A stretch of DNA of 62,361 nucleotides, the filler included, from Dugesia japonica (taxonomy: Eukaryota): NCBI GenBank assembly GCA_001938525.1. It is 5 parts of 5 records of this genome, joined end to end, with 100 filler letters (N's around TTAATTAATTAA, not from the genome) between each part and the next. Parts side by side here need not be neighbours in the genome. Positions count along the whole stretch, not along the records: positions 47,781 to 62,361 come from MQRL01641446.1; 4 more parts are not named here. One strand, given 5' to 3'. Each line of letters opens with the position of its first letter. Within the stretch, counting starts at the first letter, position 1. Position numbers and translations under genes: made by a program. Shown one piece after another: positions 34,917 through 56,650 of this stretch. The notes beneath the pieces were generated by a model. It saw nothing but the letters and a program-made list of their open reading frames with translations, did no database searches and was not told where the DNA came from.

Positions 34917-36235
34917 ATCTAGACTCTTGAAGAACAGTTTGGTTAATTATTCATAATAAATACATTCCATTCTTCTATTACCGGAGTTTTCCGTAAGTAT
35001 GACCTGGTATTATTTACAGAAAAAGGCTTCAAAAAAGAATTTCCAAGAATAAGAACTGGTCTTGCTTTACGGAAAATATATTTAATATGGTTATACTCAC
35101 AAAATATACAAAGAAATACAAAGATATAAACAGCTTGCATTTATTTTTCGTCATGTTCAAACACTACTGATCCCAATAGAAAGATTTATACTACAAATCT
35201 TTAAAAAACAAGGAATTATCTGCCGGGTCTCCCATTATTATTATTTTTAATTTTTGTTTAAGTATCTATTCCGATGGTAAGTTATTCATAGAGTCTATAA
35301 AGTAAAGCTCATTTTTTAAAGTTTCTAAATTACAAATGATCTTTTGTCATAGATGGCCCTTTAATCATAAATAAACTGAAAGCGAGCAAAATGAAAAAAA
35401 AGAAATGGAGACGGACGAAATTTTATGTATTTCACAATTCCGTTTTAAGTGTGAATTTTTTTCTATATTGTAAGAATATAATGATTTTAAAATATTGACG
35501 TATTAATATTGTGCTTATGTAAGTGAGAACTATTTAATATTCCGGAATTTGAAAAGAAAAATAATTTATCTATCATTGTATTTAAATATAATCAAACTAT
35601 TGATAAAGAAAATGAAATTTTATACCAAAATCCATAAGTCAATATCATTTTCAGAACAAAAACCCAAATGGACGCTCTGTAACTTTATTGGTTTTGAAAA
35701 ATGATCAAAAGTTTCATTGTACTGCAGTGGTAAATGTAAATCGATTGTTGAATTTACACGATCGAACACAGAAAATTTAAATTAAAATAAAATAGTTTAT
35801 TAAGTGCTCACATGGATTTTGGACACAATCAACATTCGATCGACGTGTAGCTCAATGCATATCAAATACCGAGAATACAACTGTTAGGAGAGTTTGGAAA
35901 ACTCATCGAATCATTAACATTAGAATTCACCTCCATAAATTTATTAAAATTAAAACTATGACAACACTAATTGTATTTTTAAACAAATTAAATTCATGTT
36001 TTAAATTGGTGATCGTTTCTTAAGATTTTTTTAAAATCTATTTAAAGTCATTTTATTTTTAAATAAATTTTCAACTTATTTATTAAAACTTTTTATTAAA
36101 ACATTTGATTTTTAAATAAGATTTTTAAAATAAATTTTCAACTTATTTATTAAAATTTAATTTCAGAATTTAAAACAATTAATTATTAGTCATTGGATTT
36201 TTTATTAAGATTTTTAGCAAAATGTTTCAATTCAT

Positions 36236-36745
36236 TAATCATATCCCACATCATTCTAAACTGCCTCTCGATTTGCCCATTTCTGTTATGATGATATGGA
36301 CTAGAAAACATGAGGGTAATTCCATGTTCAGCTGCGAAATCTTTCATTGATTTAGACTCAAATNNNNNNNNNNNNNNNNNNNNNNNNNNNNNNNNNNNNN
36401 NGAACTTTAATCTCCACTTCTCCAATATTGCTTTCCGTATGGTATATTCATCTTGTTTTGCCATTGCTATCAATGCTACATACTTACTGCATTGGTCCAT
36501 TATACCGAGGACACACTTTTTCCGACCTCTTTTCTCTGACAGTGGTCTTCACACATCTATAAATAACAGTTCAAATATTTCGGCCGGCTACGTCTTTTTT
36601 GTTTCTTCCTTCGTTTTTGTAGTCAACACTTTAGCTTTCTGGCATGTTATACAGCTTCGGACAACCTCTTGTACTTTGCTCCACAAATGTTTTGCGTTAT
36701 ATTTATGCTTCATATACGCTGCTACTTTTTCTGTCGTCAACAGTT
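36236..36745 (-). mobile_element. Gypsy integrase fragment
   Basis: VVRSCITCQKAK, FELLFIDV, IMDQCSKYV, FSSPYHHNRNGQIERQFR. Confidence 0.9.
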
Positions 36746-36787
36746 TCATTGCAAATTTGATATTATTGCTGGAAATATGGATAGTAT

Positions 36788-37035
36788 TTTCTTATCATAT
36801 AATTAAGTAGATAAAAATCAACTCTTGTCACAGATAAAATCAGATGATCTCTTGGATACAAGCAATTACACAAAAGATCATCAACTTTATTCTAACAATG
36901 TGGCCAGCATAATTGAATTGTTTGAAGATGAAGGAGAGAGTGAAGATTATACTTAATGGGTATTCTTAAGGCCTAAATCTTATGGTTTGAAGAAAGCAGA
37001 TACTAGTATGATAATGAAGGCAAAAGAAAACAGTT
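36788..37035 (+). pseudogene. C-terminal fragment of another Polinton pPolB
   Basis: LLDTSNYTKDHQLYSNN..IIELFEDE.....*WVFLRPKSY....MKAK matches the FDTSNY..H.LYS...G.FKDE...LRPK.Y..KAKG region. Confidence 0.75.
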
Positions 37036-37559
37036 TAAAATAAACATAACCGCCAAATGTTATAAAAGTATATAATGAATTTGAATTAAAATTCAAATCA
37101 AACTTTAAACAAAATATTGAAATTGAAGAAAACTCGCCAACCACCAGAAAAATATTGAAAGACAGAACCTTAGATTATTATTATTATAGAGAATAAATCT
37201 AAATTTTCTTAAAGCAAAGATATAAAAGAAGAACTTTAGAAAGTCAAAGGAACTCTTCTAGTAAGAACAAATCCAAGTTCAATTATCCTTTATCCAAAAA
37301 TAAAAACAATAAATCTTTATTGTTTTTCGTTAATGAAATTTGTTAAACAATTATTAATTTTGTTAAATATTTTTATATTTTTGTCAAAGGTATTTAAAAA
37401 AAACTTATAAAGCATACATTCTGGTTGTCCCAAAATTGAGACAGGAGACGCTGCCGGCCTCGACAGATTACTTTCATAATTAAAATAATAGAAACAATAA
37501 TAAACAAAACTAATTAAAATAAAATAATAACACTACAAGTTTATTAAATTAGATTACCA

Positions 37560-38410
37560 TATTGCAATAGGTTATGCTGAAGGACATTGTTGTACACATA
37601 ATGAGATTTCAACTTTTTTTGAGATGAAGTTTAAATGCGCATCAATCAAAGACAGGTTTGTGATATTTTAGCCAAAAAACAATATTTACTTGAATTCGAA
37701 GATGATGAAATTCTTTAACATTGAACTGCAAAATTTCCAGAACTTTATTCTTCTCTTTACACATGATTCTGTCAGAAATGGGAACACAATATTGTTATAA
37801 ATAAATAAATTTTAATTGCCAAAGCCAAAAAATTTGCTGAATATAGGTGATGTAAAGTTTTTTAATGGACGGTTAGATCATTTCAAAAAACGAAATAAAA
37901 TAAAGAATTTTGTTCTTGAAGGCAAGTCAGCATCTACATATATTTTGGAACTGGATGAGTGTGTAAAACGTGTAAAGATGGAAATACAGCCCGGATGACA
38001 TATTTAATATGGACGAAACTGGCTTGTTTGCTGAATATTCAGGTGAAAGATCCTTAAGCACAAGTGAATATAAAAGTGGAACTGAACCAAATAAAAAAAG
38101 ATTTACCATTTGTATTTGTACGAATTCCACGGGTACAGAAAAAAACAGTGTTTATCATTGGGAATTCAAAAAAACCTCGCGCATTTAATAATTTTCCTGT
38201 TTCTGCCTATTGTGATTATAGGGTTAATAATAAAGCTTGGATGACGGGTGAATTGTTCAAAGATTGGATCGTTAAGTTTGATGATGGAATATTTTGCAGT
38301 GGTCGAAAAATATTATTACTTGTCGATAATGTATTGCTCACATACATCTTAATGAATCACTGAAGTGCATAAAAATAACATGTTCCAACCCTAATTTAAA
38401 TAGCCACGTT
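37560..38410 (+). mobile_element. Tigger/pogo (CENP-B-like, DDE_1) transposase remnant, interrupted at 38410
   Basis: FNGRLDHFKKR, LEGKSAS, DDIFNMDETGLF, IIGNSKKPRAF, NNKAWMT, KILLLVDN; coding breaks off at PNLNSHV just before the expected QP.D motif. Confidence 0.9.
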
Positions 38411-38647: not shown

Positions 38648-38926
38648 TGCAAAAAATCGAGAATGTAAATTCGACCATGAGAAATTTCAAAATCGTAAAT
38701 TTTTTGAATTTGAGAGTAGAAAAAATTTCCTCTTTAAGAGGACCCCCACATTTTTATTTTTTTTCAAAAATGTAACATTTGTAATAGAATATTTAAACGA
38801 CAATCGGGTCTTGCGACTCATAGAAAAAATTGTGGTAAAAGAGATTTTTCATATAAATGTGAAAGATGTAAGAATCGATTTAGAACACAAGCCGAGCACG
38901 ATCAACATATAAATTTAAATGTTTNT

Positions 38927-41900
38927 GTGAATTTATTTTGTCACATTTGTAAAAAAAAGTTTGCTAATCAGGAAAAAGCGAAAAGACATTATAATAAACC
39001 AATACATAAATTAATTGAAGAGGATTATGTATATAATCAACTTCCTCATGAAATATCAACTACTAAAATAGATGAGATATTTACAGGTCCTGAATATGAA
39101 GATTTTCAAATTGAAAATTTAGATGAATCTGGAATTATATTAAAAAAATTTGTTGATGATATACCAACTGATGAATTTTATTATCAAGCAGAGATTGAAA
39201 AAATTATTACAAAATATTTTTCATTTGGAAAAAGAATTACTTTTGATATTACAGTTGAGGCAAATTATAAAAAAGAAGTTTCAAACATAACGAGAAATGA
39301 AAATACTACTACACAAATAAATTTTAAATCACATTCTTCTAATAAAAGAATAACAGTAAGAGAAAAAATTCCTGAAATCACGGTAATATTAATAACAGAT
39401 TTATTAACACAAATTAATGGTGATAAAAGTGAAAGTAATTGGGATTTAAATCATATAGTTTATTATAAAATAAGACTAGGCCTTTATAAATCAAAGGCGG
39501 GGGGAACTTATGTAAAATTACCATTTACTAAAAATGGAATTATTAATATTAAAAATAATGATAAAAAATGTTTTATTTGGTCAATTCTTGCACACATCCA
39601 TGATTATGAACATCCAACAAGAGTAACCCAATATAAAAAACATTTAAATGAATTTGATTTAACTGGTATAATTTTTCCAATTACATCTGAAGGTATAAAA
39701 ATATTTGAAAAAAATAATGGTTGGCAAATTAATGTTTTTGAGATTGAAGATAAAAATAAAATTCCCGAATCAACACACATTTCTCATTTTCTTTGTAAAC
39801 CACCACGTAATGAAAAAAAATGTAATTTGTTACTTTATAAAAATCATTATACCCTATGTAAAAATTTAAATACACTTATTAGTTTTCATGGAAGTGAAAA
39901 AAGTTTATGTATAAATTGTATGAATGCATATTCCACACATGAAAAAGTTGATAGACATCAAGAAGAGTGTATTCATCAAAAACCATCAAAAACTAATTTT
40001 GAAAAAAAAGAATTTCATCAATTTTCTGATTTTGATTTTATGATAAAAAATCCATTTGCAATATATGGGGATTTTGAGGCATACATTAACAGTATTAATA
40101 ATAAACAAAAACCAATTTCACTTGGTATTTATCTTGTAAGTAATCAAGAGGATTTAATACTAACAAATTATACTGTTTTCACAGGTGAAAATGTGATAAA
40201 TGATTTGATAAAATACCTTGAGGATTTAAATGAAAAAGTGGAGGAGCTTCTTGAAAGAAATTTTATTAACCCACAANCAAGAATTTTAAATGATGAATGT
40301 TTTTACTGTAAGAAAACACTAGGTGAAAATCCAGAAGANGTTTANAACNTTTTCAGTGGAGAATTTATTNGACCCGCACATGAGTGTTGTAATAAAAAAT
40401 ATAAAAAAATTAAGAAAAATTTCTTTATACCATTTTACTTTCATAACGCATCTGGTTATGACAATCATTTATTTTTTTAGAGAACTTATAGAAAAACACA
40501 AAGATCAAATAAAAGGAATTATACCACACACTGATGAAGAATATATTTCTTTTTCNNNNNNNNNNNNNNNNNNNNNNNNNNNNNNNNNNNNNNNNNNNNN
40601 NNNNNATTTGATAAAATACCTTGAGGATTTAAATGAAAAAGTGGAGGAGCTTCTTGAAAGAAATTTTATTAACCCACAATCAAGAATTTTAAATGATGAA
40701 TGTTTTTACTGTAAGAAAACACTAGGTGAAAATCCAGAAGAAGTTTACAACCTTTTCAGTGGAGAATTTATTGGACCCGCACATGAGTGTTGTAATAAAA
40801 AATATAAAAAAATTAAGAAAAATTTCTTTATACCATTTTACTTTCATAACGCATCTGGTTATGACAATCATTTATTTTTTTAGAGAACTTATAGAAAAAC
40901 ACAAAGATCAAATAAAAGGAATTATACCACACACTGATGAAGAATATATTTCTTTTTCATTTAAAAAAATTAGGTTTTTAGATTCTTACAGAATGTGTAG
41001 CCCAGGCACATTAGTTGAAAAAATGGGCACTGTTTTAAATAAAAATGAAATATACCCACATTTAAAATCATTTAATTTAAAAGCAAATAAAATTGCATTT
41101 CCTTATGAATATTTAAAAGGAGAAAATGTGGAAGAAGTTGAGCAATTATTAAAAAGTAATAAAATACCCTCAATGGAAGATTTTTTTAATAGGTTAAGAC
41201 AGAAAAAAATATCTTTTAAAGAATATAAGGAATTTTTAAAAGAATTTTTTAAAGTAAAAAACATGTGAGAACACATGCTTCTTTATTTAAAACTTGATGT
41301 TTTAATTCTTGCAGATTTCATGGAAAATCTTCGTGAAATTTCTATGCAATATTATGGGATTGATTAATGCTTTTGTTACTCAGCTCCAGGACTTACTTGG
41401 GTAACAGGAATAAAATTTACTGGAGTTAAACTAAGATATCCTAAAAAAGAAAGTTATGAATATTGTTTAAAAAATCAAAGAGCAAGTCGTGGTGGTGTTT
41501 CTGCAGTAACTAGTGAAAGACAAGTTTTTCCATTTAATAAAAATATATCAGAAAGGAAATTTACAAAACCACAAAAAGAAGAAATTAAAAAATGTTTAGA
41601 GCGAGGAAAAGAAATTCCAGAAGAATTTTCTAAAGAAACATTTTTAAAATATTTAAATCAAAATTCTGTATATGCGGCATGTATGATGAAACCTCTTCCA
41701 ATAGGTGATTACATCGAATGTACTAATTTAACATATGAAAAATCAACAGAAGAGTATAATTTCATGTATGAGGTGGATTTGGAGTATCCTCCTGAAATTC
41801 ATAAAAAAACAAGATATTATCCTTTTGCACCAGAGAGGTTAAATATACGAAAATTATGGAAGCACCATATCAAACCAATTTTCATAAAAAAATTCCAAAA

Positions 41901-42903
41901 GATAATACAAAATTAGTACTTACTCAATTTGATAAGTTTCGTTATTATTTCCAAGGAAGTACACTAGACTTTTATTTATCACAACGAATGAAGTTGAAAA
42001 AATTTTATTACAAAGTAAAAGTTCCAAGAACTCCACGGTTAAGACCTTATATTCTTTTTAACATTCAAAAGAGAAATGAAGCAAAAAGAAATGGAGATGA
42101 TTTTCCATCTGATTTTCTCAAGCTTTTAAATAATGCCTTTTATGGAAAATGTCTTGAAGATGTTTTTAAAAGACAGAGTATAGTATTTGTTACAAATAAT
42201 GAAGAATTTCAAAGGCAATCTGCAAAATAATCATTTAAATATTTTAAAATATTTACAAGACATTTAGCAGCAATGCACATGAAAAAAAATAATATAAAAT
42301 ATAATAAATTTCCAATGATTGGTTTCGCAATTTTAGAATATGCGAAAGAGATTATGTATAACTTTATATATGTTCAAATTCAACCATTAATTGGAACAGA
42401 AAATTATAAAATTCACTACACAGATTTCCTTTTCGTAGAAATAAGCGGGCAAGAAAATTTAGACAAGTTGTCAACATTGTTTGGAAATGAACTCTTTCAA
42501 ATGAAAGACGAACAACCAAACGCAGAAATTACACATGCAAATTTTTATAAGGACAAAATGTTATGCTTTTAATTTTATACTAAATCATTTAATTGAATAT
42601 TACAATAGACACAAGGGTGCATCAAAAACTAATGATGTACAAATGATGGATTATGATAAAATTTTAGAAGATGCGCAACAAGTGATTTCTGGAGTGAATT
42701 ATAGTTTAAAATCAGATAGGCATGAAATAGAATTAATTTCTCAAAATAAAATAATAATGAGTGCTTATGATGATAAAGTTTTAATTGAATTAAATGGTAT
42801 AATAACTTGGCCACATGGAAATCAATTTTGGTGTGAAAGATGTGAAGCATGGCATTTAAGGTTAGATCTTTTATGGAATCGTTTAAGTTGTCAACTTACT
42901 TAA
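38927..42903 (+). pseudogene. Protein-primed DNA polymerase B (N-terminal C2H2 finger, OTU-like domain, exonuclease, polymerase), disrupted
   Basis: CHICKKKF..H....H; NNDKKCFIW...LLYKNHY; IYGDFEA; FHNASGYDNH; RFLDSY; FPYEY; YLKLDVLILAD; SAPGLTW; SRGG; YLNQNSVY; KLLNNAFYGK; HYTD; MKDE; SAYDDK. Frameshifts and stops at ~40880, 41266, 41366, ~41860, 42228 and ~42550; 40203-40555 is duplicated at 40606-40958 across a gap. Confidence 0.96.
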
Positions 42904-43437
42904 TTCAAATGTAGGACTTGTAACTTTAGATTTTAAAATTATTTCATGAACTTCTCTAATCATAGATTTACTAGAAGAAATTTCCTCATCTGTTAAAATA
43001 TTATCATTCAAAGCCTTTTGCTGAAATTTAAAAAGTTTATTTTTAACAGCCTCCAATTTAAAAATAAGGTTAGTATATTTCTTTTTCTTCTTTTGAATTA
43101 AAGATGAATTTAATGCAACGGTAATTGGAATTGAAGAACCTATTCCAGTTATTATGGGAAGACCAATTGTAGTAATTCCTATTCCAAGTGAAGTTGCAAA
43201 ATTACACCAACAATGGCCACACCAGTTCCAATTATAATTTGAACAACTTTTATTCCATCATCGGCGGCGGCCTATTTTGAATAAAATTTTCTGTAATGTT
43301 TTATTTATAAAGTAAAGGTCATTTTCGAAATCTTTAATTCTTAAAAATGACAATTTTGATTTTAAATCTTCAAGTGTATAATTGTTTATTTCTTGCTGAT
43401 AATTTTTTAAATCTGGGTATAATGTTTCGTCTGCCAT
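42883..43437 (-). pseudogene. Polinton membrane protein (adintovirus 'GasderminX'-like), frameshifted
   Basis: MADETLYPDL..., Gly-rich hydrophobic TSLGIGITTIGLPIITGIGSSIPITVAL, KKKRKY, KALNDNILTDEE: pattern of the conserved Polinton TM protein. Confidence 0.65.
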
Positions 43438-43440
43438 TTT

Positions 43441-44003
43441 ACATAGGAAAATTTTCATAGTTCATCGAATATTTTTTTTCTACCTTTTTCAAGACAAGTT
43501 TTAATAATAATATGATTATTAATATAAATATTAGCTGGTAAAATAAAATGAAAATTTTTTATATCTATACTTTCTACTTGATTTATTATTGTTTCTGTTT
43601 TTATTTTATTCTCATCATCGAGTTCATAACCACTTTTACCACCCCTTAATTTTAAGGTGTTTATTTCTAATTTAAATTTTCCAAGTTTTACATGAGAAAA
43701 ATCTACAATCTCATCAGAACCAGAAACATTAATAGTAATACTAATTTTAGATATTTTTGTATATCCCCCAATAAAAATACATATTGGAAAAACAAATCAT
43801 GTAGTTTTAAAATAAAGTTTTAAAGGACTAGCAAGAAAAAAATATAATGTTTTTTACTATAATATTCCCAAAACCCATTTATTATTACTTTTTCTAATAT
43901 TAAATAAATTTTTTCATAAGAATAATATGGAAATTTATTTTCATTTTTAAGTAAAAAATACATTTTAAAAAGAATATATTCTTTTAAATAAACATTTTTC
44001 CAT
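43441..44003 (-). pseudogene. Decayed hypothetical ORF within the Polinton cluster
   Basis: Open C-terminal part (IFIGGYTKISKISITINVSGSDEIVDFSHVKLGKFKLEINTLKLRGG...) preceded by several stops. Confidence 0.35.
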
Positions 44004-44061
44004 ACTAAATAATTATCAACTAATTCTTCTAATTTTTTTAGGATCTCTGGAGATCTTGTTT

Positions 44062-44490
44062 TTATATATATTTCAAAATTTTCATTAATTTTTTTACATA
44101 TTCTGGGTGAAGACGATTTTTTATCTTTTCAAATTCTTCTATTAAAGAAAATAAAGGATCATTTTCTTTTATTAAAGAAATTTGTTTTTTTAAAAGCTCA
44201 ACTTCTTTTTTTATCTCTTCTATTTCTTGTTTGGATTTAGAATCATTTTGTTTTTTTAAATTTTCAACATCATCTTTTATTTGGAAGAAAAACTTGAAAA
44301 TAAATTTTTTGAGAAATTTAAAATTTACTAAATCATCTTCATCTTTAGGATAATCAGGAATTTTTATTTTCTTAATATTTTTTAAATTTACAGCATCAAG
44401 ATTGTCTTTAGGATCATCAGTAATTTTTAAATGTTTAACAGTGTCACCACTCACATTTACAAATTTACTTTCACTAAGTAAATCAGCCAA
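44062..44490 (-). CDS. Putative fibre/spike-like protein with P.D..DAVN repeats and coiled coil
   Basis: GDTVKHLKITDDPKDNLDAVNLK and PDYPKDEDDLVNFK, followed by heptads; non-ATG start as annotated. Confidence 0.55.
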   Translation of the reverse strand: MADLLSESKFVNVSGDTVKHLKITDDPKDNLDAVNLKNIKKIKIPDYPKDEDDLVNFKFLKKFIFKFFFQIKDDVENLKKQNDSKSKQEIEEIKKEVELLKKQISLIKENDPLFSLIEEFEKIKNRLHPEYVKKLMKILKYI

Positions 44491-44505
44491 TTTTAATTTA
44501 TCAAC

Positions 44506-44748
44506 CTATTTTTTTAAACCGGTGTAAAGAATGATAATATTTTTTTGTTCATTTTTTAAAAATTTTAAATTTACTGCATCCAGGTCATCTTTAGGCGGAT
44601 TGAAAATTTTAAGAAATTTTACAGAGTCTCCAGTTTCATTTTCAAATCTTTTTTCATTGCTGGCATCTTGAATTCTTAATTTTGCATAAAGAGTATTAAT
44701 AATTCTTTTTTCATTCCTCGCCTGTGATCGGCGTCCATATGCATTCAT
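44506..44748 (-). CDS. Paralogous putative fibre-like protein
   Basis: MNAYGRR...GDSVKFLKIFNPPKDDLDAVNLKFL; clear paralogue of the adjacent ORF. Confidence 0.55.
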   Translation of the reverse strand: MNAYGRRSQARNEKRIINTLYAKLRIQDASNEKRFENETGDSVKFLKIFNPPKDDLDAVNLKFLKNEQKNIIILYTGLKK

Positions 44749-45152
44749 TTATTTCAGAAATAATTTCATCAAAAGATTTTTCTGGAAAACTATAAAGAAA
44801 ATAAATACAGAGTACACCACAAATTTTTGTTTCAAAAGGTTGAACTTGTTTTTCATTAAATTTTATTATGTTGTCCTCAGGATCTTCATGAAAAGGTTTT
44901 AAACCAAAAGAGTCAAAATAATGTTTTTTTTAATGCGACCCAGTGAGATCCTTTTTGATAAGAATTTTGATAATTAAAAATATAATTCATATCATTTTCA
45001 AAAATTTTAGGTAACTCATTTTTCATGTAAATTTCTAATGGAATTTTTAAAAAGTTTGCAATGGAATAAAGACCAAAATTTGTAGTTGTTGTAATTCCAA
45101 ATGTTTTTAAAAAATCTAAGACTTTTGGTTTGCTGTTGGAAGTATGAAGCAT
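44711..45152 (-). pseudogene. Adenain-like cysteine protease (virion maturation), one frameshift in a T run near 44925
   Basis: YIFNYQNSYQKGSHWVAL / YFDSFG...NEKQVQPFETKICGVLC: catalytic H, D, Q and C all present. Confidence 0.92.
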
Positions 45153-45808
45153 TTTCTTAAGTGAACAATTAATGTTATTGTTTCATTATTAAAATCAATA
45201 AGTTCAAAATTCTCATCAATAATTTCAAATCTAAATCCATCAATATAACTAGAAGATATTCTTGAGTAAATGAGTGGTGATGGTCTTTCTACAATTTTAT
45301 ATCCAAAGCTTACAGTGTTTGTTGGAAATGAATATAATAAATTAGATTGTTTATTATTTATATAATTCCCCTTTACTATATTACAAGTAATGTTAATTGT
45401 ATTAATATCAGAAATATTTATTTTTTCATCTGAATAATATTTTCCTGCTGGATACTCTTTTGGCTTAAAACCTAAAAGTTTATAAAAGAAAGATTTCTCA
45501 TCAAATTTTAAAATTTTATTTTCTGCAATAATAAGTAAAGATTTTCCGGTTGATGTGTCTAAAGTTATCTCTATTCCAAGGTCTTTTATTTTCTCTGTAA
45601 TTTCTTCAACCTCATAAGCACCAAGATGAATTTTTTCTTGTTTACCATTTAATGTAAAATTTACATCATCTCGTTCAACATTAAAAATTGTATTATAAAC
45701 AGAAAAACAAATTAAAGCAATTTCATAATCTTCTTTTAAATCTAATGGTCTTTTTAAATTAACTTCTAATTTCGATCCTTTACCAGTAACTAAAAATTGA
45801 TGAGACAT
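45116..45808 (-). CDS. Minor capsid protein (penton, single jelly-roll)
   Basis: RPLDLKEDYEIALI.FSVYNTIFNV, GAYEV, KLLGF, INITCNIVKGNYIN, LYSF, GYKIVERP..LIY, IIDENFELIDFNNE.ITL.VHLR. Confidence 0.9.
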   Translation of the reverse strand: MSHQFLVTGKGSKLEVNLKRPLDLKEDYEIALICFSVYNTIFNVERDDVNFTLNGKQEKIHLGAYEVEEITEKIKDLGIEITLDTSTGKSLLIIAENKILKFDEKSFFYKLLGFKPKEYPAGKYYSDEKINISDINTINITCNIVKGNYINNKQSNLLYSFPTNTVSFGYKIVERPSPLIYSRISSSYIDGFRFEIIDENFELIDFNNETITLIVHLRKCFILPTANQKS

Positions 45809-45814
45809 TTTTTA

Positions 45815-46750
45815 TTAAAAATATTTTGGATATTTTTTATATTTATCTTTTGAAATTAATTTTTTATTTTTTAATTTTTTACAAATTAATTTTATTTCTG
45901 GAGCAACATTTTCATGACCTGCTTTTCTTGCAGAAAGTAAAGCAATTAATTTTTCAAATAAATCTACTGGAGTTGTGAGGGCGTTCCCTGCAGTTAAGAA
46001 TGATGTTCTTCTTTGGGGTTGATCTAAATCTTCTAGCGATGATGATTTTACTTTTGATTTTACCATCTTTAAATATTTTGAATTAGCTCAATGTCTAATA
46101 TTTAAACCATATTGATAAATAATTGCATCTTCTTTTTCTATATTACTCATTTTCTCTGCATGATCTAAAACTATTTTCATTAAATCTTCTTTAAAAGGAA
46201 TAAGTTTATCTCTATTAAATAAAAATTGTGCAGAATCTTTTTCAACTAAATATATTTTATTATTATCAATACTAATAGTCGGAAAAGCCTTTTCTTTAAT
46301 GACTTCATAAGAAATTTTTGGTAATATTTTTTCTGAAGTAAAAAATTTTTTTTCAATTTCAACTTGATTATTTTGTATATTCATAGGAGTTAAATTTTCA
46401 AATTTTATTTCTTCTTTTTTAGGTTCTAATATTGGATCTAATATTGGTTGTATTAGTTGAATTAATGGTGGAGCTATTGGTTTTACTTCTTCTAGTTTTT
46501 GTTGTAAAGCAGAAATTATTGGAGTTTGTTGAAAAGCATGAGAAGAAAGAAGATTTTTAGATGCAAGAACTTTACTAGTTAAAAATTGATTATATATTTC
46601 TTCTTTTTCAATTATTTGTTTTAATTCTTTAATTCTAGGTTCTAATAAAATATAACTATTACTTATACTTTCCTTTGGTTGTGCTTCGCTTCGCTCGCTA
46701 GTCGCTTCGCTCGCCATTTTTATAAGGTTTGAAATAAACTCCATCTCCAT
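45815..46750 (-). pseudogene. Conserved Polinton virion-associated hypothetical protein; one gene split by a single TGA at 46088-46090
   Basis: ORFs 46088-46750 and 45815-46066 are in the same frame, linked by ANSKYLK; C-terminal LFEKLIALLSARKAGH....EI..I...L....LI motif typical of Polintons. Confidence 0.7.
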
Positions 46751-47260
46751 AAGGTCTTAAATATAATCCCCCTCCTTTTTTTAATTTTTTCGATGGATTT
46801 AAATTTTGATTTTTTAAATATTTATAAATCACAGACCCTTGTATTTCACTTATGTATTGTACTTCATCTTTATTTTGAGTTGGAGTTGGAATTGGGGTTT
46901 GAGTTGGATTTAGTCGTTGTTCTTTTCATATTCTAATTTTTCAGTTACAAGTCTCGAATTATGTGCATCTCGCGAATTTTTAACGGCGAGTGCAATCCCC
47001 CCTGCTACACCTGCGACTGCGGCTGTTGCAACTGCGACTTTGCCAATGCCAGCAAGAAAAGCAATTACTGCAGGTATAAGCGCCAATAGTGGAATAAAAT
47101 CCCCCTATTTTTCTTCTCGTTTTTTAATTTCTTCTTTTACTTTTTTACCTATCCAATAATTTTTACCATTAATTTTAACTGTTCTACTATGATTTGAATT
47201 TATTAATTTTCTTAATTCTTCTTCTGTAATATTTGCTCGTGCTTCGCTTCGTTCGCCCAT
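46698..47260 (-). pseudogene. Membrane-active core-protein precursor (cupiennin/pVI-pX-like), one stop and one frameshift
   Basis: ...KKREEK*GDFIPLLALIPAVIAFLAGIGKVAVATAAVAGVAGGIALAVKN...(shift)...KKGGGLYLRPYGDGVYFKPY. Confidence 0.75.
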
Positions 47261-47264
47261 TTTT

Positions 47265-47680
47265 CTAAGTAAAAAGATCGGTTGTAACTTCATTTGTTAA
47301 TTGGTTTAAATAAAAATATGTATATGGTTTTTTCCATTGAAAATTTAGTTCATAATCATATTCATCCTTATCGCAAAATACACAAGAAAATAAATCACTA
47401 AAAACACTATCGCGATCTCTTTTATTTAAACGGAAAAATATAAAACAGTTACTATTATTTCGTATTGAATTTTTATCGAGGTGAAAATATGTTTGGGAAA
47501 TATAAATCACATTACAATTTGAATGNCGACCTCGAGTAAAATAACTTTTTTGAATTTGTTGATTTTTTTCATTTACAACATCATCAAAAATTACAAGATT
47601 TTTTAAATTCTTTTTTAATTGGTCACAACGAAGAATGTCATCTGGTTTATTGCTTAGAATTACATCTATTGTTTGTGGTT
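47265..47680 (-). CDS. A32/FtsK-like DNA packaging ATPase, C-terminal half (truncated by spacer)
   Basis: Walker B KNLVIFDD, FTRGRHSNCNVIYISQTYF, IRNNSN. Confidence 0.92.
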
Positions 47681-47780
47681 NNNNNNNNNNNNNNNNNNNN
47701 NNNNNNNNNNNNNNNNNNNNNNNNTTAATTAATTAANNNNNNNNNNNNNNNNNNNNNNNNNNNNNNNNNNNNNNNNNNNN
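47681..47780. other. Artificial scaffold-joining spacer
   Basis: 44 N + TTAATTAATTAA + 44 N. Confidence 0.97.
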
Positions 47781-48937: not shown

Positions 48938-49695
48938 TTACACCAATACTGTTCCGTTTTCTTTAATCTGAATCTCATTTTTAAATACTCCATAAATTAC
49001 AACATATGCTGATGTTGTTAAAGCTTTGTTGTTGAGGTAATTTACTCTCATTTATATCAAAACCTGGAGCAAGAACAAATGTAAAGAAGAGATAATTATC
49101 CTTAAAATCTTGAAGTGTTATTCAACAATTTATATTCTTATTCAAATATCCCATATTTCGTACTATAGGTTGCTTATATGTTGTGGCATAATTATCGTTT
49201 GTAAGGTCCTGAGTATATATTTCTCAAAAATCAGTGTTTTTTTTAAAGAAACAGAAACAGCATCTAGATTTTGAAATGTTGAACTCGAGCTTTTATAACT
49301 ACCATTATATTGTTCACCGCTTTGAAATGCTATTAAAATAAAGCTAGGTAATCGACGATCACCAAAGATTTGTTCCTTATAAAACGATGAACTATCTTTA
49401 CTAATTGCAAATGCAACGACTTCCTTGTTTCTTATAAGATAAACAGCATTTTGTTTTTTTAGTTCTATTTGATGAGCAACTAGTATTGAGGGTTCAATGC
49501 GTACACGTCTAACCATTAGTTTTGCATCTAGTAATACATATTTAGGTGCATTGGCTGAGAATTCCAAACAAATGTTAGCATCTGTTCATTTCAATCAAAT
49601 CTGAACATTGACACCAGGAATAAAGTATTTCGATTGATCCATGAAATCAAGTTGAAATGAACCACATAGTGAAAATGGTTTTGATTTTGCAATAG
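48938..49695 (-). pseudogene. Polinton major capsid protein (double jelly-roll), C-terminal part, decayed
   Basis: LCGSFQLDFMDQSKYFIPGVNV, DAKLMVRRVRIEPSILVAH..EL...NAVY, IFGDRRLPSFILIAF, YNGSY...F, FTFVLAP, YVVIYGVFKNEIQI. Confidence 0.88.
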
Positions 49696-49805
49696 ACGTA
49701 AATTGGATTTTGAAGCTCAACAATGTAATTACTAGCAATATTATTTGGATGAAGTAACGGACTACTATTACTAGGTAAAAGTGTATAGAAATTATTCGAT
49801 TTCAT
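49696..49805 (-). pseudogene. N-terminus of a second penton gene, deleted and fused into the MCP
   Basis: MKSNNFYTLLPSNSS...HPNNIASNYIVELQNPIY; diverged duplicate of ~50835-50967. Confidence 0.75.
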
Positions 49806-49845
49806 CTAAATATTTTTCTTGTTTAACTATTTGCATTAAACAATA

Positions 49846-50940
49846 TCAAGATTTAATGTTAACTTTTCTAAAATTTAACGTTAAATGAGTTTTTGATTCT
49901 TCTGCAAAGTTGAATAGTTTTCCACTATTATCACATATATTGATTTCTATATTGTTTATAAATGATGAGGAAATTGGTAAATACATTGGATTGTCAACAT
50001 TTATTTGAACTAATTTATCATTCATTTGTTCTTCTATCCATACTGATTTCAATAAAGGAACATTAACATCACCAACAGTAATAGGTTCAACAATACTACA
50101 ATAGATGAACATTTCATTATGACACTTTAATATTCTAGATTTCTCATTACTTTCATATTGTAGTTGTTCATCATCATGATGTATTCGAGTATATTGAGAT
50201 TCATTTAATCCTAGTGATTTTATTAAGATTTTATTGAATCCAACACTTTTAGTTCTACTCGACAATGTAAATTCAAATAGCTCATCTTAATTAAATTTGA
50301 AAGTTTCAAATAACATTGAAAGGTTTTTTTAATGTATTAATTTAGTTGTTTTAAATTTCTTTTATATACAAATCGGTTTCAAATTGAAAAGAGTGTTTAG
50401 TTCAGTTGCATAATAATATTTAATTTTTATTTTTTCAACAGAATCATCGTTTTTAAAGTCATGAAAGAGAATCGAAAAAACCTTTTGATCATCGAAAGTT
50501 ATCCTACTATACTTTCTATTAACTTTCCTTCTACCATATGTAAATCTTACCAAGTTTTCAAAAGTATCAAATGATAAACTGTGGAATTTAATATCAATAC
50601 TAAAGGTTATCTTATTTTTCTTAAATTTTATATCGGTTTCTGTATTATTTTTATATTTATCTTGAGAATTAACAGTTAAAAGAACCTTTTTCTCTTTGTT
50701 GTTAACTTCAAGTATTAGTTCTTTCTCAATTGGTTTAAATAATTCATATTCAATCTTTGCTTGACTGTGAATGTATATGTCTGAATATATAAAGGTGAAA
50801 GCCATCATGGCAACTTCTCAATTACCATCCATGTAAATTGGATTTTGAAGCTCAACAATGTTATTACTAGCAGTTTTATTTGGATGAACTAACGGGCTAC
50901 TAATATTCGGTAACAGTGTATAGAAATTATTTGATGTCAT
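49846..50940 (-). pseudogene. Minor capsid protein (penton) with long central insert, disrupted
   Basis: N-terminus FYTLLPNISS...PNKTASN.IVELQNPI.MDGN*EVAM; C-terminus MFIYCSIVEPITVGDVNVPLLKSV..NPMYLP...INNIEINI.DNSG..F...HLTLNFRK. Confidence 0.88.
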
Positions 50941-51456
50941 CTGAATTTTTGTCTTGATTGACTATTTGTGATACTTATATGTTACTTTGTTTTATCCATA
51001 GCATTTTATATAGTATTGTTTATTCATTTCATTTGCTTTAAACCAGAAAATTCTTGCAAATCGTTTGAAAAAAACGACAAATATCAAAATTATACTTGTA
51101 AACTTTATTAATCTTTGAATATGGAATCATTTCCATTAGATAAATTTACTATAAATATGATTACCATTTGTTTTATATGCTCTTGTTGGAAATCTTTTCA
51201 ACAATGACTTCTTCAGGTTGTACACTAGTTGTCCAGATTACCACTTTTTCGATTTTATTTCGTTTTTTGAGATGCTTTCGATTTTTCTATGCTTCGGAAA
51301 CCTGCTGAACTTTTTGCATCCGTCTATATTGTCTTTATTTTAGTCTCCCTTACAACAATTTGGGGCAAATTTTAGATCAAAGTTAGGTAATGATTGCAAT
51401 CCATCCATTGTTCATGAGTTAATTATTAATATTGCTGTTAAAAAGTCAACCATTGT

Positions 51457-51778
51457 TTATTTGAAATGAGTTAAGCCTAATGCTCCCAATGCAATTGGTA
51501 GTAATGCTGCTATAAAGCTACCTCCTTGATTATTCATTACTCATCTCACTGATTGTCTATTTTTTGTGTTTACAAGTATTAATAAAGTTTTTTTTATGTT
51601 TTTTCAATGTTTCCGTTTTGGCTGCACTCAAATCTACATTACCACGAACAATATTTATAATAATTTCAAGTAAATCTTCTATTACATATGGTGGGAATGA
51701 TTTCAAAATTCTCGTTTCTAATAGGTTTTGATGATTTAATCAAAGCTGTAAAAACGGAATGCTTCTTTGTAATTTCAT
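51457..51778 (-). pseudogene. Small Polinton protein ending in QGG + amphipathic tail, decayed
   Basis: EIIINIVRGNVDLS...LKKHKK.L..L...NNQGGSFIAALLPIALGALG. Confidence 0.75.
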
Positions 51779-51787
51779 CTTTATTTA

Positions 51788-52051
51788 TTAAAATAATATA
51801 TACCTTTTATTTGTTAATGATAATATTGTTTTCGTTTTTATCATTCTCAGCTTCTTTCCACTTCTTTTTGCAAGTTTTTTAAACATATTCATTCGTTTCC
51901 TTTTATTTACTCGCTGCTTCCCATTTACATGATGTTTCTTATGCGTTTGTTTCTTCTTATTTTCATACATTTTCTTCTCAAAAGATACGTTTTGACGTTT
52001 TACAACACCATCAGTTACTTGATCAACTACAAATTTCTTTAATTTTGTCAT
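51788..52051 (-). CDS. Lys-rich basic hypothetical protein in the Polinton cluster
   Basis: ATG-started 87-aa ORF tightly packed between the ATPase and QGG genes. Confidence 0.5.
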   Translation of the reverse strand: MTKLKKFVVDQVTDGVVKRQNVSFEKKMYENKKKQTHKKHHVNGKQRVNKRKRMNMFKKLAKRSGKKLRMIKTKTILSLTNKRYILF

Positions 52052-52074
52052 TTTCCTTTAAATATTATGAAACA

Positions 52075-52685
52075 TTACCTATTTTGTTTAAATATTGTAA
52101 TACAATTTGGATTGAATATATCTGTTCCCACTCCATAGTCATCTGCACATTGTTGTGTAAAGTCATGAAATAGATATCCATGTGGTTTGTCTGTTGCATC
52201 TTGAAATGATTCAATAAGAAATTGTCTGTTATTTGAATATGCTTGTCTTGCTAGAAAATCAACAACAGTCTGATCTTTAGGATTTTTGAATAGAACCAAA
52301 TATTGTACGTTTAAATAAAGGGTTCTATGACCACCCCCTTGAAGAAATAGATTTTGAGTAATAAATATCACAGTCACATTATGATGTCTCGATATCTTTG
52401 TGAATAAATTATTGAAATCTTTTCTTTATTTGCCTCCTGATACAGATCATCAACAACAATAACATCATCTGTTCTTAGAATCAAGCAATTTATCACTTTC
52501 ATTTTAATATTATAAAATTCATATTTTGTCAGTCCATGTTCTTCATCGGCATCCTTATGTCAGTACATGTTTTTATATTTTGACCTGAATAACTTTGATT
52601 TCAATAACTGACATTCAAACAGAGTTTTACCACTATCACTAGGTCCAATAATTTGAAAGACTGCATCATTTCTTAATTTCTCCAT
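52075..52685 (-). pseudogene. A32/FtsK-like packaging ATPase, frameshifted
   Basis: Walker A FQIIGPSDSGKT, Walker B VIVVDDL, FTKISRHHNVTVIFITQNLF, YLVLFKNPKD, DATDKPHGYLFHD. Confidence 0.93.
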
Positions 52686-52793
52686 CTTGTTTTTCTTTAT
52701 TCATTACATTTATTACATTGTTTATATTTGTTTTAACGAATCAATTAAATTAACTCCATCAAAACCCCAATGTTCCTCATTTATTCATTAATT

Positions 52794-53212
52794 ATGATTA
52801 GCAATATTAATTACAGAGATGAAGTGTCGCTAGACGTAACACAGAAAATGAGCTTTCCTATAGGCAAACCATGTCAAGTTAAAGTCAAAATTGATAAATA
52901 TACAATTATTTTTTCAGATCTGGAAAATGTAGAATAATGGGATGTAAGAAATCATTGAAACCACATGATTTGAACCCCTATGATATCAAACATCTACAAT
53001 TGCAGTCACTGACAATAGTCGTAAATATGGGAGTTTCAATAAATTTGTATAAATTAGCAAGAATAGTCAACTGTTGGTTCGAACCAGAGTTATTTCTTGC
53101 TATAAAACTGGTAAAATATGACCCTTTATGTGTAAATGTGTTCTCAACAGGAAAAATAGTGATACTAGGGCTTAAAAATTTATATTTTCAAGAATATGTG
53201 AATCAACTTTGA
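52794..53212 (+). pseudogene. Compact TATA-binding-protein (TBP)-like gene, one 1-nt frameshift in the T run 52909-52914
   Basis: MISNINYR...KPCQVKVKIDKYTIIFF|RSGKCRIMGCK...INLYKLA...WFEPELFLAIKL..YDPLCVNVFSTGKIVILGLK: both TBP repeat signatures (IF.SGK....G.K; YEPELF...F.SGKIV..G.K). Confidence 0.85.
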
Positions 53213-53229: not shown

Positions 53230-54265
53230 ATGTATCATTGGTTATTTTTTGAGTAGAGCTGTTTGAAGAAGAACTTGCTTTGATGACAATTTCAATTGCA
53301 TGGAATAAATTGTTTGGACTTATGTTGTAACTGTCATCGATATGACCATCTTCACCACAACATCTTCAACAGTGTATTCTTTCTGACACAGTGCAATGAT
53401 TTCATCATCATCAATGACTTCTTCTGTTTGAATTATATCCTCTTCAACTATTATTTGGTCAAGCTCATTCTTGTGTGTCTTAAGAACGGGATCTGATGAC
53501 AAATTTTTTTCAGCATAAGATCCGTGAAGACCTGGAATAATCGCAACCTTTTCGAAACAATTTTTGATGGTTTCGTCCTTTACATCTTCCCAAGTTTTAT
53601 GGAGTATCAATATGGCTTTACTAAGATTAACAAAAAATGTTTTTGTTTGATCAAGCGAGTTCATGTAATCAACTACTAACATTTTTCTGTAATAATACTT
53701 GAAACCTTTTATTATACCTGCATCCATGGGGTGAAAATGAGCAGTTGAGTTCTTCTGAAGCATTATAACTTCAATATTTTGAAAACATTTCTTCAAGCTA
53801 TGACTTGGAACGTTATCAAAGAAGTAGATAAAATTTCTATTTGTATTTTCTCAGTTCCTCATTAAGATGCTGCACAAAACCATTAAACAGATCGGTGATC
53901 ATCCATGCTTTCGAATTTGCAACATTAAATCCTTTAAAATATCTTGTTATTTTGCTATGTCCAATAACAAAGGGTGTAATTTTAATTGATCTACTAGCAT
54001 TTGAACATAAAGCTATGGTTATTCTAACTTAAGATTGTTTTATGCTGTTTCTTTCACTTGATGAAATTTTCCTTGTAGGAAATTAAGTATATTAAGTATA
54101 ACTTGTGGGTCAATTCCTGCCAATTTTTCCACCATTTTTTTCTATGGTCTGAAACATCAATATCATTCATTGAATTCGCTTCTCCATGGAGAACATTCAG
54201 ATTAAATCAATTTTTGAATCTATAGAGCCATCCTTTGCTGAATTGCAAGTGTGCAAAGTTGAATT
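53230..54265 (-). mobile_element. Tigger/pogo transposase remnant (second copy)
   Basis: FSKGWLYRFK, LHGEA, RITIALCSNA, PFVIGHSK, NSKAWMI, FDNVPSH, NSTAHFHPMDAGIIKGFKYYYR, TIKNCF. Confidence 0.92.
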
Positions 54266-54669
54266 TAATGCTCGCTTCGGAGAAGTTCCAGACAGAAATT
54301 ATCCAATACAACAATTATTTTTGTTACGAGTGATTTAAAATAAATGTATTATCATTATTATTTAGTCTTTGTTTTATTTATTTAGTTTTATTTATTTTTA
54401 TTATTTATTTTATTTTATTTTTTTATTATTTTAAATGAATTCTGTAAAACGATCAATGGTTATGTCCAACAATTATTCTTGCAAAAATTGCAATTGTAAA
54501 ACAATCTAAACAAAAGTTAATAATAATATGAAAATAATAATAAATTACTTTATCTCCAATAATTCATTTATTTTTGTAATAAAAATTTAAATTGAGATAA
54601 AATAATTACCTTTTGTTAAGGTTTTAACAACTAGCCAAACAATTGCGAGAATGTATGAATGTATGTAAA

Positions 54670-55323: not shown

Positions 55324-55426
55324 TAATAAACAATATAGAAATTAATATACGCGCTGATGACGGAAAATTATTCAAGTTTGCAAAAGATTTAAAAACACAT
55401 TTAACTTTCCATTTTAAAAAACTAAA
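55324..55426 (+). pseudogene. Penton C-terminal fragment
   Basis: IINNIEINIRADDGKLFKFAKDLKTHLTFHFKK, homologous to ~49860-49960. Confidence 0.75.
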
Positions 55427-55660
55427 TGATAAATCCTGATATTGTTTCATTGTTTCATGGCACTAGTCAAGCATGGGAGAATTGCCTTACTTTCTTGGAA
55501 AACAGTATGGATCTAGTTGTTTGTGAACAATACGTAGATTTGCTTTACCAAATCTTTAACGTATTGGTTCATTTGGTATGGAAATTACACAAGATGTAAT
55601 AACTAATAATGGAAAATTACAATAAAATCCAATGTGTTAAAGGAAATTGGTGATGTAGTG
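55426..55660 (+). pseudogene. Polinton pVII-like core protein, decayed
   Basis: MINPDIVSLFHGTSQ/GELPYFLGKQYGS..L.TIRRFALP.L.RIGSFGMEITQDVI resembles the Q.G.G-containing core protein family. Confidence 0.55.
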
Positions 55661-55677
55661 TCTTCGCTACCTAATCC

Positions 55678-56236
55678 CATTTATTAGGATTAAGAAAGCA
55701 AAATGCAGTTTATCCTATAAGAACTAAGGAAATCGTTGTATTTGCAAGTACTAAAGATAGTTCATCGTTTTATAAAGAACAAATCTTTGGTAAACGAAGT
55801 TTAACTAATTTTATTCTAATCGCATTTCAAAATGGAGATCAATTTAATGGTAATTATAAAAGTTTTAGTTCAGCATTTCAACATCTCAATGCTATTTCCG
55901 TTTTCTTAACGTAAAACACTGATTATAGTGAAATATATACTCAAGACTTTGAACAAAAAAATTATAGCACATTGTATGTACAATGTATTGTTCGAAATAT
56001 GTGATATTTGGATAAGAATCTGAATTGTGGAATAACACTTGAGAAATTCAAAATTAAATGTTAATTTTGACAATTGCTCTTGCTCCAGATTTTGATATAA
56101 ATCAGAGTCAATTACCTCAAGATGGAAATTTCAGATTGAATATCGAGTTTGTTAAACCTATAACATCACGGGCATATGTTATCATTTATGGAGGAAAAGT
56201 AAATTCAAATTAATGCAAACAGAACAATATTAGTGA
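55678..56236 (+). pseudogene. Major capsid protein C-terminal half, second inverted copy
   Basis: KQNAVYPIRTKEIVVF..TKDSSSFYKEQIFG...FILIAFQNGDQFNGNYK...LAPDFD...GNFRLNIEF..P.....VIIYG; collinear with 48938-49470. Confidence 0.9.
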
Positions 56237-56247
56237 AAATCAATACC

Positions 56248-56650
56248 ATGCATACTTGATACATTTTTTATGCAGTAAGTCGTTTAATATTAAATTTTTT
56301 TAATTTACTAGATCCATTGATTGATCGGATTGGATCAAAGTTGCTTGGATCATCATGGCTAGATTTCTTTGCACTAGATAATATTTCAAATTATATTCCA
56401 GTGAATCAAGCCTTAATCTTCAATACCCATACATCAAATTTAGGTGAAGAACATTGGATAGATGTTTACAATAAATCTTCATAAATACTAGTATTTGATC
56501 CATTAGGATTGTATTATCCATCAATGTTAGTGATACACTTGTCGGAATGATCGAAACCAATGGTGTACAATAACATTTAATATCAAGATCATTTACTACA
56601 ACTTGTGAACATCACTGTATAATATTGTTTGAAAAACAACATTGTAGTTG
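56248..56650 (+). pseudogene. Adenain-like cysteine protease, decayed
   Basis: LIFNTHTSNLGEEHWI, VFDPLG, YNNI*YQD/FTTTCEHHC. Confidence 0.85.

What the first reader, a model, noticed from the sequence alone, without database searches (positions are those of the whole stretch)
52794..53212. Polinton-associated minimal TATA-binding protein: a mobile element that may carry its own basal transcription factor
Seen: an intronless ~140-aa reading frame with both TBP repeat signatures, restored by adding one T at 52909-52914. It starts only ~110 bp from, and divergent to, the start of the packaging ATPase. It is far too short and diverged to be the host TBP. Known: the Polinton core set is pPolB, integrase, ATPase, adenain, MCP and penton; viral TBPs are familiar from large DNA viruses (nucleocytoviruses, white spot syndrome virus). 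I do not know TBP as a standard Polinton gene, but cannot confirm novelty. Inference: this Polinton family captured a TBP that may redirect Pol II to its virion-gene promoters or act as a decoy of host TBP.
Basis: partly seen in the sequence, partly recalled or inferred. Interest (0 to 1): 0.85.

Follow-up and report, generated by a model that had tools for sequence, protein, structure and literature searches.

The report
Polinton lineage with its own TBP
This is a broken copy of a small TATA-binding-protein gene carried by a lineage of virus-like Polinton elements whose capsid, packaging and integrase genes share one TATA-like word, so the protein likely lets these elements switch on their own late genes with the host's RNA polymerase II.

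Summary
Confirmed. 52794-53212 is a decayed copy of a 145-180 aa TBP-fold family (Pfam TBP 40.8 bits; an intact natural relative folds onto yeast TBP, Z 13.3). The family belongs to Polintons: 21 of 24 metagenome loci of 4 kb or more carry core Polinton genes, and dN/dS is about 0.17. In those loci YATAAAC precedes 62 of 80 virion/integrase genes, on the sense strand, peaking 30-39 nt before the ATG. It precedes 0 of 35 TBP genes and 0 of 39 such genes in Polinton contigs with no TBP hit (partial, mostly one lineage). Its C lies at the position the host TATA consensus excludes. The protein keeps the acidic TFIIB stirrup but has a polar DNA face and three of four phenylalanines, recalling herpesvirus vTBP. 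Best reading: a late-promoter factor for host Pol II (0.65); binding is untested. Corrections: the divergent layout is rare (1 of 28 relatives), and the nearby pPolB lies beyond an assembly gap and belongs to another element. In print I found only a figure-legend label (Starrett 2021). This scan noted the family and a shared motif before, in other genomes.

The parts
52794..53212 (+). Decayed Polinton TBP-family gene: frame break at 52909-52914, early stop at 53210-53212
   Evidence: 77% identical to intact relative P0001
52720..52726 (-). TATAAAC, candidate late-promoter word, starting 41 nt before the ATPase ATG
   Evidence: same word before 20 of 22 ATPase genes in relatives
52728..52735 (+). 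TTGTTTTA word in the TBP leader, role unknown
   Evidence: in 10 of 35 TBP leaders against 0.7 in shuffles
52084..52685 (-). Packaging ATPase, broken
   Evidence: tblastn 78% to the L002 ATPase
51484..51781 (-). Conserved small Polinton ORF (my cluster c5), broken; function not assigned
   Evidence: cluster found in 19 loci
51022..51279 (-). Integrase fragment
   Evidence: rve domain in relatives
49864..50928 (-). Penton-like gene, broken (label inferred from position and weak similarity, no Pfam hit)
49954..49960 (-). Second full TATAAAC, ahead of the small ORF/capsid region; ATAAAC cores also begin at 51460 and 51023 ahead of the integrase and penton regions
48941..49693 (-). Major capsid protein fragment (double jelly roll)
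   Evidence: relative's MCP matches DJR clusters at 0.97 and a DJR MCP by hhalign, probability 53%, E 1.4e-4
53320..54028 (-). DDE_1 transposase remnant just behind the TBP gene; ends the Polinton fragment
   Evidence: Pfam DDE_1 56 bits; depth falls sharply from the bin starting at 53276
55374..56595 (+). Second, inverted fragment of the same Polinton family (small ORF, capsid, protease)

Best explanation
The locus is a dead copy of a TBP-fold gene that a lineage of Polintons carries, and the intact protein likely acts as the elements' own late-promoter factor. Shown: fold, linkage to Polinton core genes, purifying selection, a strand-specific YATAAAC word ahead of capsid, ATPase, protease, PLA2 and integrase genes, and its absence ahead of the TBP gene itself. 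Inferred: the TBP gene is read early by host factors (TATA plus initiator-like leader in many members); the protein then binds YATAAAC(A/G) through its remodelled, polar first repeat, which by analogy with cellular TBP faces positions 5-8 where the unusual C lies; it recruits host TFIIB and Pol II through the retained EPELF stirrup; and the short clade, lacking helix H2 of repeat 1, would escape host regulators that dock on that lobe.
For: Fold: pLDDT 95, Foldseek E 5e-9, VIA Z 13.3, rmsd 2.6 over 149 residues, next non-TBP Z 7.2. Linkage: 40 of 80 loci, 21 of 24 loci of 4 kb or more, 29 of 44 clusters at 70% identity. Selection: dN/dS median 0.17, max 0.24, 10 disjoint pairs. Motif: ATAAAC in 108 of 181 non-redundant leaders against 13.3 in shuffles; 40 of 109 sites at 30-39 nt; ATPase 20/22, MCP 8/9, integrase 10/14, none antisense; TBP 0/35. 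It occurs in two coding frames, over stop codons and between genes, so it is a DNA-level signal. Control 0 of 39 against 62 of 80. Host consensus YWTAWADN leaves out C at position 7, and the second Phe pair inserts between positions 7 and 8 (PMC1935006). The family has Pro where the first Phe lies, and invariant Asn, Arg, Met, Ser and Asn on strands that face DNA in cellular TBP. KSHV ORF24 likewise needs extra asparagines to read its variant TATA.
Against: No binding or transcription data; no start site mapped (one search lists no place where many molecules begin). The control is weak: 10 partial contigs, 9 of them from one group of close relatives, so a TBP gene could lie outside them and lineage is confounded with TBP. 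Cellular TBP has been crystallised on a C(-25) TATA variant (PDB 1qn3; equating it with position 7 is recalled), so host TBP can bind such a site. Sites are spread widely: 11 of 109 lie under 20 nt from the annotated ATG and 31 at 60 nt or more, partly from uncertain starts. The early-promoter signal is modest: canonical TATA 19 of 35 against 8.7 in shuffles; the initiator-like word 31 of 35 against 20.1 over 100 nt. In polyA RNA run X22 reads over the ATPase lean antisense, unlike an active late promoter; only 7 of 2215 reads there are 99% alike to this copy.
Confidence: 0.65

Rival explanations
1. Host TBP or another host factor reads YATAAAC, and the Polinton protein is a decoy that ties up TFIIB or TBP regulators to dampen host transcription.
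For: TFIIB stirrup invariant; one intercalating Phe lost; cellular TBP can bind a C-containing TATA variant (1qn3); ATAAACA fits a forkhead-type pattern (pattern recalled).
Against: A decoy does not need invariant new residues on the DNA face. GTAAACA is in 1 and GTAAATA in 2 of 116 leaders, at shuffle level, and TATAAAC and CATAAAC are never antisense in them. The word is missing in contigs with no TBP hit.
Confidence: 0.17
2. The word is read by another element-encoded protein (zinc-finger, KilA-N or an unassigned ORF) or marks a start site rather than a TATA box; TBP is only a cofactor.
For: These elements carry C2H2 and KilA-N genes and several unassigned ORFs; some sites abut the ATG.
Against: Those genes occur in subsets of loci only, while the word occurs in both the short-TBP and long-TBP clades. 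The word is a one-base TATA variant with its mode at TATA distance.
Confidence: 0.1
3. The elements depend on a large helper DNA virus; the word is the helper's promoter and the TBP serves the helper's polymerase.
For: Virophages and PLVs share promoter motifs with giant viruses (search listings only); many large viruses encode TBP folds.
Against: The model's best matches are cellular and archaeal TBPs (E 5e-9) rather than viral ones (5e-8), though the gap is small; baculovirus-type TAAG is not enriched; no helper is in evidence.
Confidence: 0.06
4. A processed pseudogene of host TBP or TRF2 that happens to lie beside a Polinton.
For: This copy is intronless and broken.
Against: 70 relatives, most of them 145-175 aa, about 20% identity to cellular TBP, purifying selection and repeated Polinton context.
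Confidence: 0.02

Closest known systems
Cellular and archaeal TBP (Pfam PF00352; PDB 1ytb, 1cdw, 2z8u)
   Same: Two-repeat saddle, EPELF stirrup, three of four intercalating Phe, first Asn.
   Different: About 20% identity; no N-terminal extension; first Phe replaced by Pro; polar invariant residues on the DNA face; helix H2 of repeat 1 missing in the short clade but present in the long clade.
Beta/gammaherpesvirus vTBP (KSHV ORF24; bioRxiv 10.1101/2025.08.25.672222)
   Same: Virus-encoded TBP fold with extra asparagines, including an N-x-N pair, linked to a variant TATA word ahead of virion genes.
   Different: ORF24 is multidomain, binds Pol II directly, works in a six-protein complex and lacks the acidic TFIIB residues; this family is a stand-alone 145-180 aa protein that keeps them. 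The word is YATAAAC, not TATTWAA. I read the likeness as convergence (inference).
Adintoviruses / Polintons / Mavericks (Starrett et al. 2021, PMC8502044)
   Same: pPolB, rve integrase, packaging ATPase, protease, DJR capsid, PLA2 in one clade. The Fig. [quoted passage not shown]
   Different: The main text uses TBP once, in that legend; the accessory-gene section does not name it. I could not see the figure, so I do not know which element bears the label or whether it is this family. No promoter word is described in the parts I read.
TBP-like proteins of large DNA viruses (nucleocytoviruses, mirusviruses, nimaviruses)
   Same: Viral TBP fold.
   Different: Mostly longer (186-500 aa among the named TBP rows, one 169 aa) and 10-19% identical; a canonical-type TBP from a large-virus contig (L001) falls outside the family in the tree.

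Membership tests
TBP superfamily (PF00352) | Pfam score above the curated cut-off | tested here: met
   40.8 against 22.9 bits for the window piece
TBP superfamily (PF00352) | Two-repeat saddle fold | tested here: met
   Model of natural relative P0001: Z 13.3, rmsd 2.6, 149 aligned to yeast TBP 66-240
Canonical TBP | Four intercalating phenylalanines | tested here: not met
   Three invariant; the first aligns to an invariant Pro
Canonical TBP | Base-contacting Asn in both repeats and a hydrophobic concave face | tested here: not met
   First Asn 61 of 63; second is Ser in 63 of 63; Asn, Arg and Asn replace hydrophobic positions; which positions face DNA is recalled
Canonical TBP | Acidic C-terminal stirrup for TFIIB | tested here: met
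   E-P-E invariant in 63 of 63 short-clade members; only the second Glu is invariant in the 37 long-clade rows; sequence only
Canonical TBP | Binds a TATA box and supports initiation | not testable with these tools
   needs biochemistry
Host TBP/TRF retrocopy | Nests within host TBP or TRF | tested here: inconclusive
   54 family rows form one side of a branch with SH-aLRT 100 against 20 archaeal and other TBPs (quick tree); no animal TBP or TRF was available
Host TBP/TRF retrocopy | Neutral evolution | tested here: not met
   dN/dS median 0.17 in 10 disjoint pairs of relatives
Polinton/Maverick | Protein-primed PolB on the same element | tested here: met
   Same contig in L008, L012, L015, L052, L055, L058, L060, L062 (Pfam). 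Not linked in the window itself (gap)
Polinton/Maverick | rve integrase, packaging ATPase, protease, DJR capsid | tested here: met
   protease by weak Pfam hits below cut-off
Polinton/Maverick | Terminal inverted repeats and target-site duplication | tested here: inconclusive
   None in 5 near-complete but open-ended contigs or around the window fragment
Herpesvirus vTBP (ORF24/BcRF1/UL87) | Multidomain protein with a Pol II-binding N-terminal domain, lacking the TFIIB acidic residues | tested here: not met
   145-180 aa single domain with EPELF against ORF24 as described
Herpesvirus vTBP (ORF24/BcRF1/UL87) | Polar, Asn-rich DNA face paired with a variant TATA word | tested here: met
   N-x-N in strand 1 and invariant Asn in repeat 2; YATAAAC; functional pairing inferred

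The most novel reading that the evidence does not exclude
A single 150-residue TBP is a complete viral early-to-late switch: it reads a TATA variant that host promoters avoid, borrows host TFIIB and Pol II, and sheds the lobe that host regulators grip. That would give these Polintons a true virus-like transcription cascade, reached independently of herpesviruses and with one protein instead of six.
Probability: 0.5. Interest if true: 0.85.

Novelty: new variant of a known kind. Interest (0 to 1): 0.72.

Why it matters
How Polintons time and drive their capsid genes is open, and it bears on whether they are transposons or viruses. A paired factor and promoter word makes this testable with one small protein and a 7-bp probe. 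It would also be a natural altered-specificity TBP, with a graded series from full-length to minimal forms that shows which parts of TBP can be lost.

Tried and rejected
No whole genome is held, so copies in this assembly could not be counted. IMG/VR gave no member of the family (one canonical-type TBP in a large-virus contig) and no relatives of the capsid alignment or of the other element's penton; two further alignments had no usable pattern. No RNA holder listed. The word is not enriched over the whole window (32 against 40 expected): it shows only by position. Polyadenylation signal rejected: AATAAAC 5 against 3.2 and AATAAA 23 against 21.1 of 116 leaders. Forkhead GTAAACA, baculovirus TAAG and herpes TATTWAA are not enriched. 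The window's other Polinton (38.7-47.7 kb) has no TBP hit and no YATAAAC in 12 leaders, but several starts were misplaced in broken frames, so I did not count it as a control. L098 and L099 (distant ATPase hits) were left out of the control count. No TIRs found. The careful tree did not finish; the quick tree is used. No complex prediction was run, as only an archaeal TFB stand-in was on offer. The paper on TATA variants in TBP crystals is not held, and a search for Hoogsteen + TBP + TATAAAC found nothing. Sequence search of earlier findings: nothing.

Full report
1. Observation. The sequence at 52794-53212 holds both TBP repeat signatures in two frames that change at 52909-52914. The 3' piece passes the Pfam TBP cut-off (40.8 against 22.9 bits) and matches only TBP-containing chains in the PDB (34 of 34). 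Read with X at the break, it keeps 18 of the 19 invariant family columns, the nineteenth being at the break; one near-invariant stirrup residue is changed and the frame stops about 11 residues early. It is a dead copy.

2. Surroundings. On the minus strand lie broken ATPase, small ORF, integrase, penton-like and capsid genes (48941-52685); behind TBP sit a DDE transposase remnant and an inverted second fragment with capsid and protease. The pPolB at 38.7-42.9 kb belongs to another element with its own ATPase, beyond a scaffold gap at 47681-47780. The window alone therefore does not link TBP to a polymerase. No genome is held. Contigs and reads of organism A cover ATPase and TBP deeply and drop where the transposon begins; two short contigs span the ATPase-TBP junction, so the divergent layout exists in other copies. 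The host is probably an animal (inference from the virion genes, which PMC8502044 calls animal-restricted).

3. The family. 70 of 71 candidates matched the 3' piece, best 77%. Alignment A1 used 63 of them; 7 of unusual length were dropped. Its profile found 509 proteins among 3482 candidates; none of the best 120 is listed from NCBI. It found 61 clusters at 50% identity with E up to 1e-30. The natural relative P0001 folds with pLDDT 95 onto cellular and archaeal TBP (Z 13.3, rmsd 2.6, 149 residues; next other fold Z 7.2). The short form has no helix between strand 5 and repeat 2; the 176-aa member P0259 has it, so the family runs from nearly full to minimal. A quick tree of 74 rows puts all 54 family rows on one side of a branch with support 100 against 20 archaeal and other TBPs. 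No animal TBP or TRF was available, so the donor is unknown.

4. Linkage and selection. Of 125 metagenome hits the best 80 were kept. 40 of 80 carry at least one of ATPase, integrase, penton, capsid, protease or pPolB; among contigs of 4 kb or more, 21 of 24, and the other three share accessory genes with them. After clustering TBP at 70% identity it is 29 of 44 clusters. L008, L015, L052, L060 and L062 are near-complete elements, without detectable TIRs. Labels rest on Pfam for integrase, pPolB, ATPase and PLA2, on the Atlas and hhalign for the capsid, on weak Pfam hits for the protease, and on inference for the penton. From 47 intact coding sequences of the 80 loci, 31 of 1081 pairs were within measurable distance; 10 disjoint pairs give dN/dS median 0.17, maximum 0.24.

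5. The promoter word. From 281 leaders, 216 remained after removing near-duplicates. In the 181 non-TBP leaders (100 nt) ATAAAC occurs in 108 against 13.3 in dinucleotide shuffles. YATAAAC is sense-only and precedes ATPase 20/22, capsid 8/9, integrase 10/14, penton 10/17, PLA2 10/12, protease 4/6; it is rare before several accessory genes (c4 1/13, c9 0/6) and pPolB (1/4, starts uncertain). 40 of 109 sites lie 30-39 nt before the ATG, and the next base is A or G in 96%. It is absent from all 35 TBP leaders, which hold a canonical TATA in 19 (8.7 in shuffles) and an initiator-like TCAYW in the last 40 nt in 29, against 46 of 181 other leaders; over 100 nt that last signal is modest (31 against 20.1). 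It is not a polyadenylation, forkhead GTAAACA, TAAG or TATT signal. In 10 IMG/VR contigs with Polinton genes and no TBP hit (best E 0.26-0.35), 0 of 39 leaders of the same gene classes have it, against 62 of 80. Those contigs are partial, redundant and mostly one lineage, so this control is suggestive only. In the window's own fragment the four minus-strand ATAAAC cores lie ahead of the ATPase, integrase, penton and capsid regions.

6. Mechanism. The eukaryotic TATA consensus YWTAWADN leaves out C at position 7, and TBP's second Phe pair inserts between positions 7 and 8 (PMC1935006). That this pair belongs to the first repeat is recalled. The first repeat is the remodelled one here: Pro at the first Phe, invariant Asn, Arg and Met on its strands; repeat 2 keeps both Phe and EPELF but has Ser and Asn at two further positions. 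KSHV ORF24 also uses extra asparagines at positions that are hydrophobic in TBP, but lacks the acidic TFIIB residues. I infer an early TBP gene whose product reads YATAAAC(A/G) and brings in host TFIIB and Pol II (0.65). Binding, timing and partners are untested. Against it: host TBP has been crystallised on a C(-25) variant (1qn3); spacing is broad; and in run X22, which looks stranded by the transposase reads, RNA is sense-biased over TBP (about 4:1 in two bins, 1.6:1 in the third) but antisense-biased over the ATPase, from copies mostly under 95% alike. That may be read-through from decayed copies and supports neither view.

7. What is known. Searches for polinton, adintovirus or Maverick with TBP, TATA, promoter motif or ATAAAC gave one relevant item: Starrett et al. 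2021 (PMC8502044; passages, sections 3.2 and 3.4, supplement list and text search seen; figures not seen) and its preprint 10.1101/697771 (two passages), whose figure legends label a TBP-like gene. The supplement search had no hit but the file is cut; preprint supplements are closed; subscription papers and Repbase are not covered. Also seen: 10.1101/2025.08.25.672222 (passages, one section), PMC1935006 (passages), 10.1101/2020.12.26.424438 (passages; one sentence on Hoogsteen pairs and TBP); all others as listings only. Eight earlier notes of this scan describe the family in other genomes, most with a shared TATA-like word; I saw them after and do not count them as support.

8. Verdict. A real, conserved Polinton gene family with a matching candidate promoter word; this copy is dead. 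It works like a viral late-promoter TBP, belongs to the TBP superfamily, and is neither a canonical TBP nor a herpesvirus vTBP. New variant of a known kind; interest 0.72.

Noticed in passing
window 38738-47680: A second, different decayed Polinton (zinc-finger pPolB on +; protease-, penton- and A32 ATPase-like genes on -), no TBP hit, ending at the scaffold gap.
   Followed up: partly
window 21785-23942 (-) and 36735-37040 (+): pPolB remnants 34-42% identical to the pPolB of TBP-carrying elements L008 and L015; possibly the polymerase type of the TBP lineage.
   Followed up: partly
window 52728-52735 and TBP leaders of relatives: TTGTTTTA in 10 of 35 TBP leaders against 0.7 in shuffles; by eye mostly in leaders without a TATA box. 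Possible second early element.
   Followed up: partly
L052, L060, L062 against L002, L008, L044: The first base of the word shifts between elements (L060: 14 CATAAAC, 2 TATAAAC; L002: 1 and 9); a chance to test covariation with TBP residues.
   Followed up: no
L081:1186-2100: TBP domain in one 305-codon frame behind a region that looks PC4-like by eye (recalled, no Pfam hit); may be a fusion or two adjacent genes.
   Followed up: no
L012, L021, L029, L035, L040: A secreted-looking leucine-rich-repeat gene two places behind TBP; YATAAAC in 5 of 5 leaders.
   Followed up: no
window 54368-54501: A very high-copy short repeat, abundant in RNA runs too; similar copies near 2879-2950 and 16468-16523.
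   Followed up: no
window 19211-20114, 36186-36810, 37816-38363: LTR-retrotransposon protease and integrase-like remnants and a second DDE_1 transposase remnant.
   Followed up: no
L001: Large DNA virus contig with a canonical-type TBP beside ribonucleotide reductase and family B polymerase.
   Followed up: no
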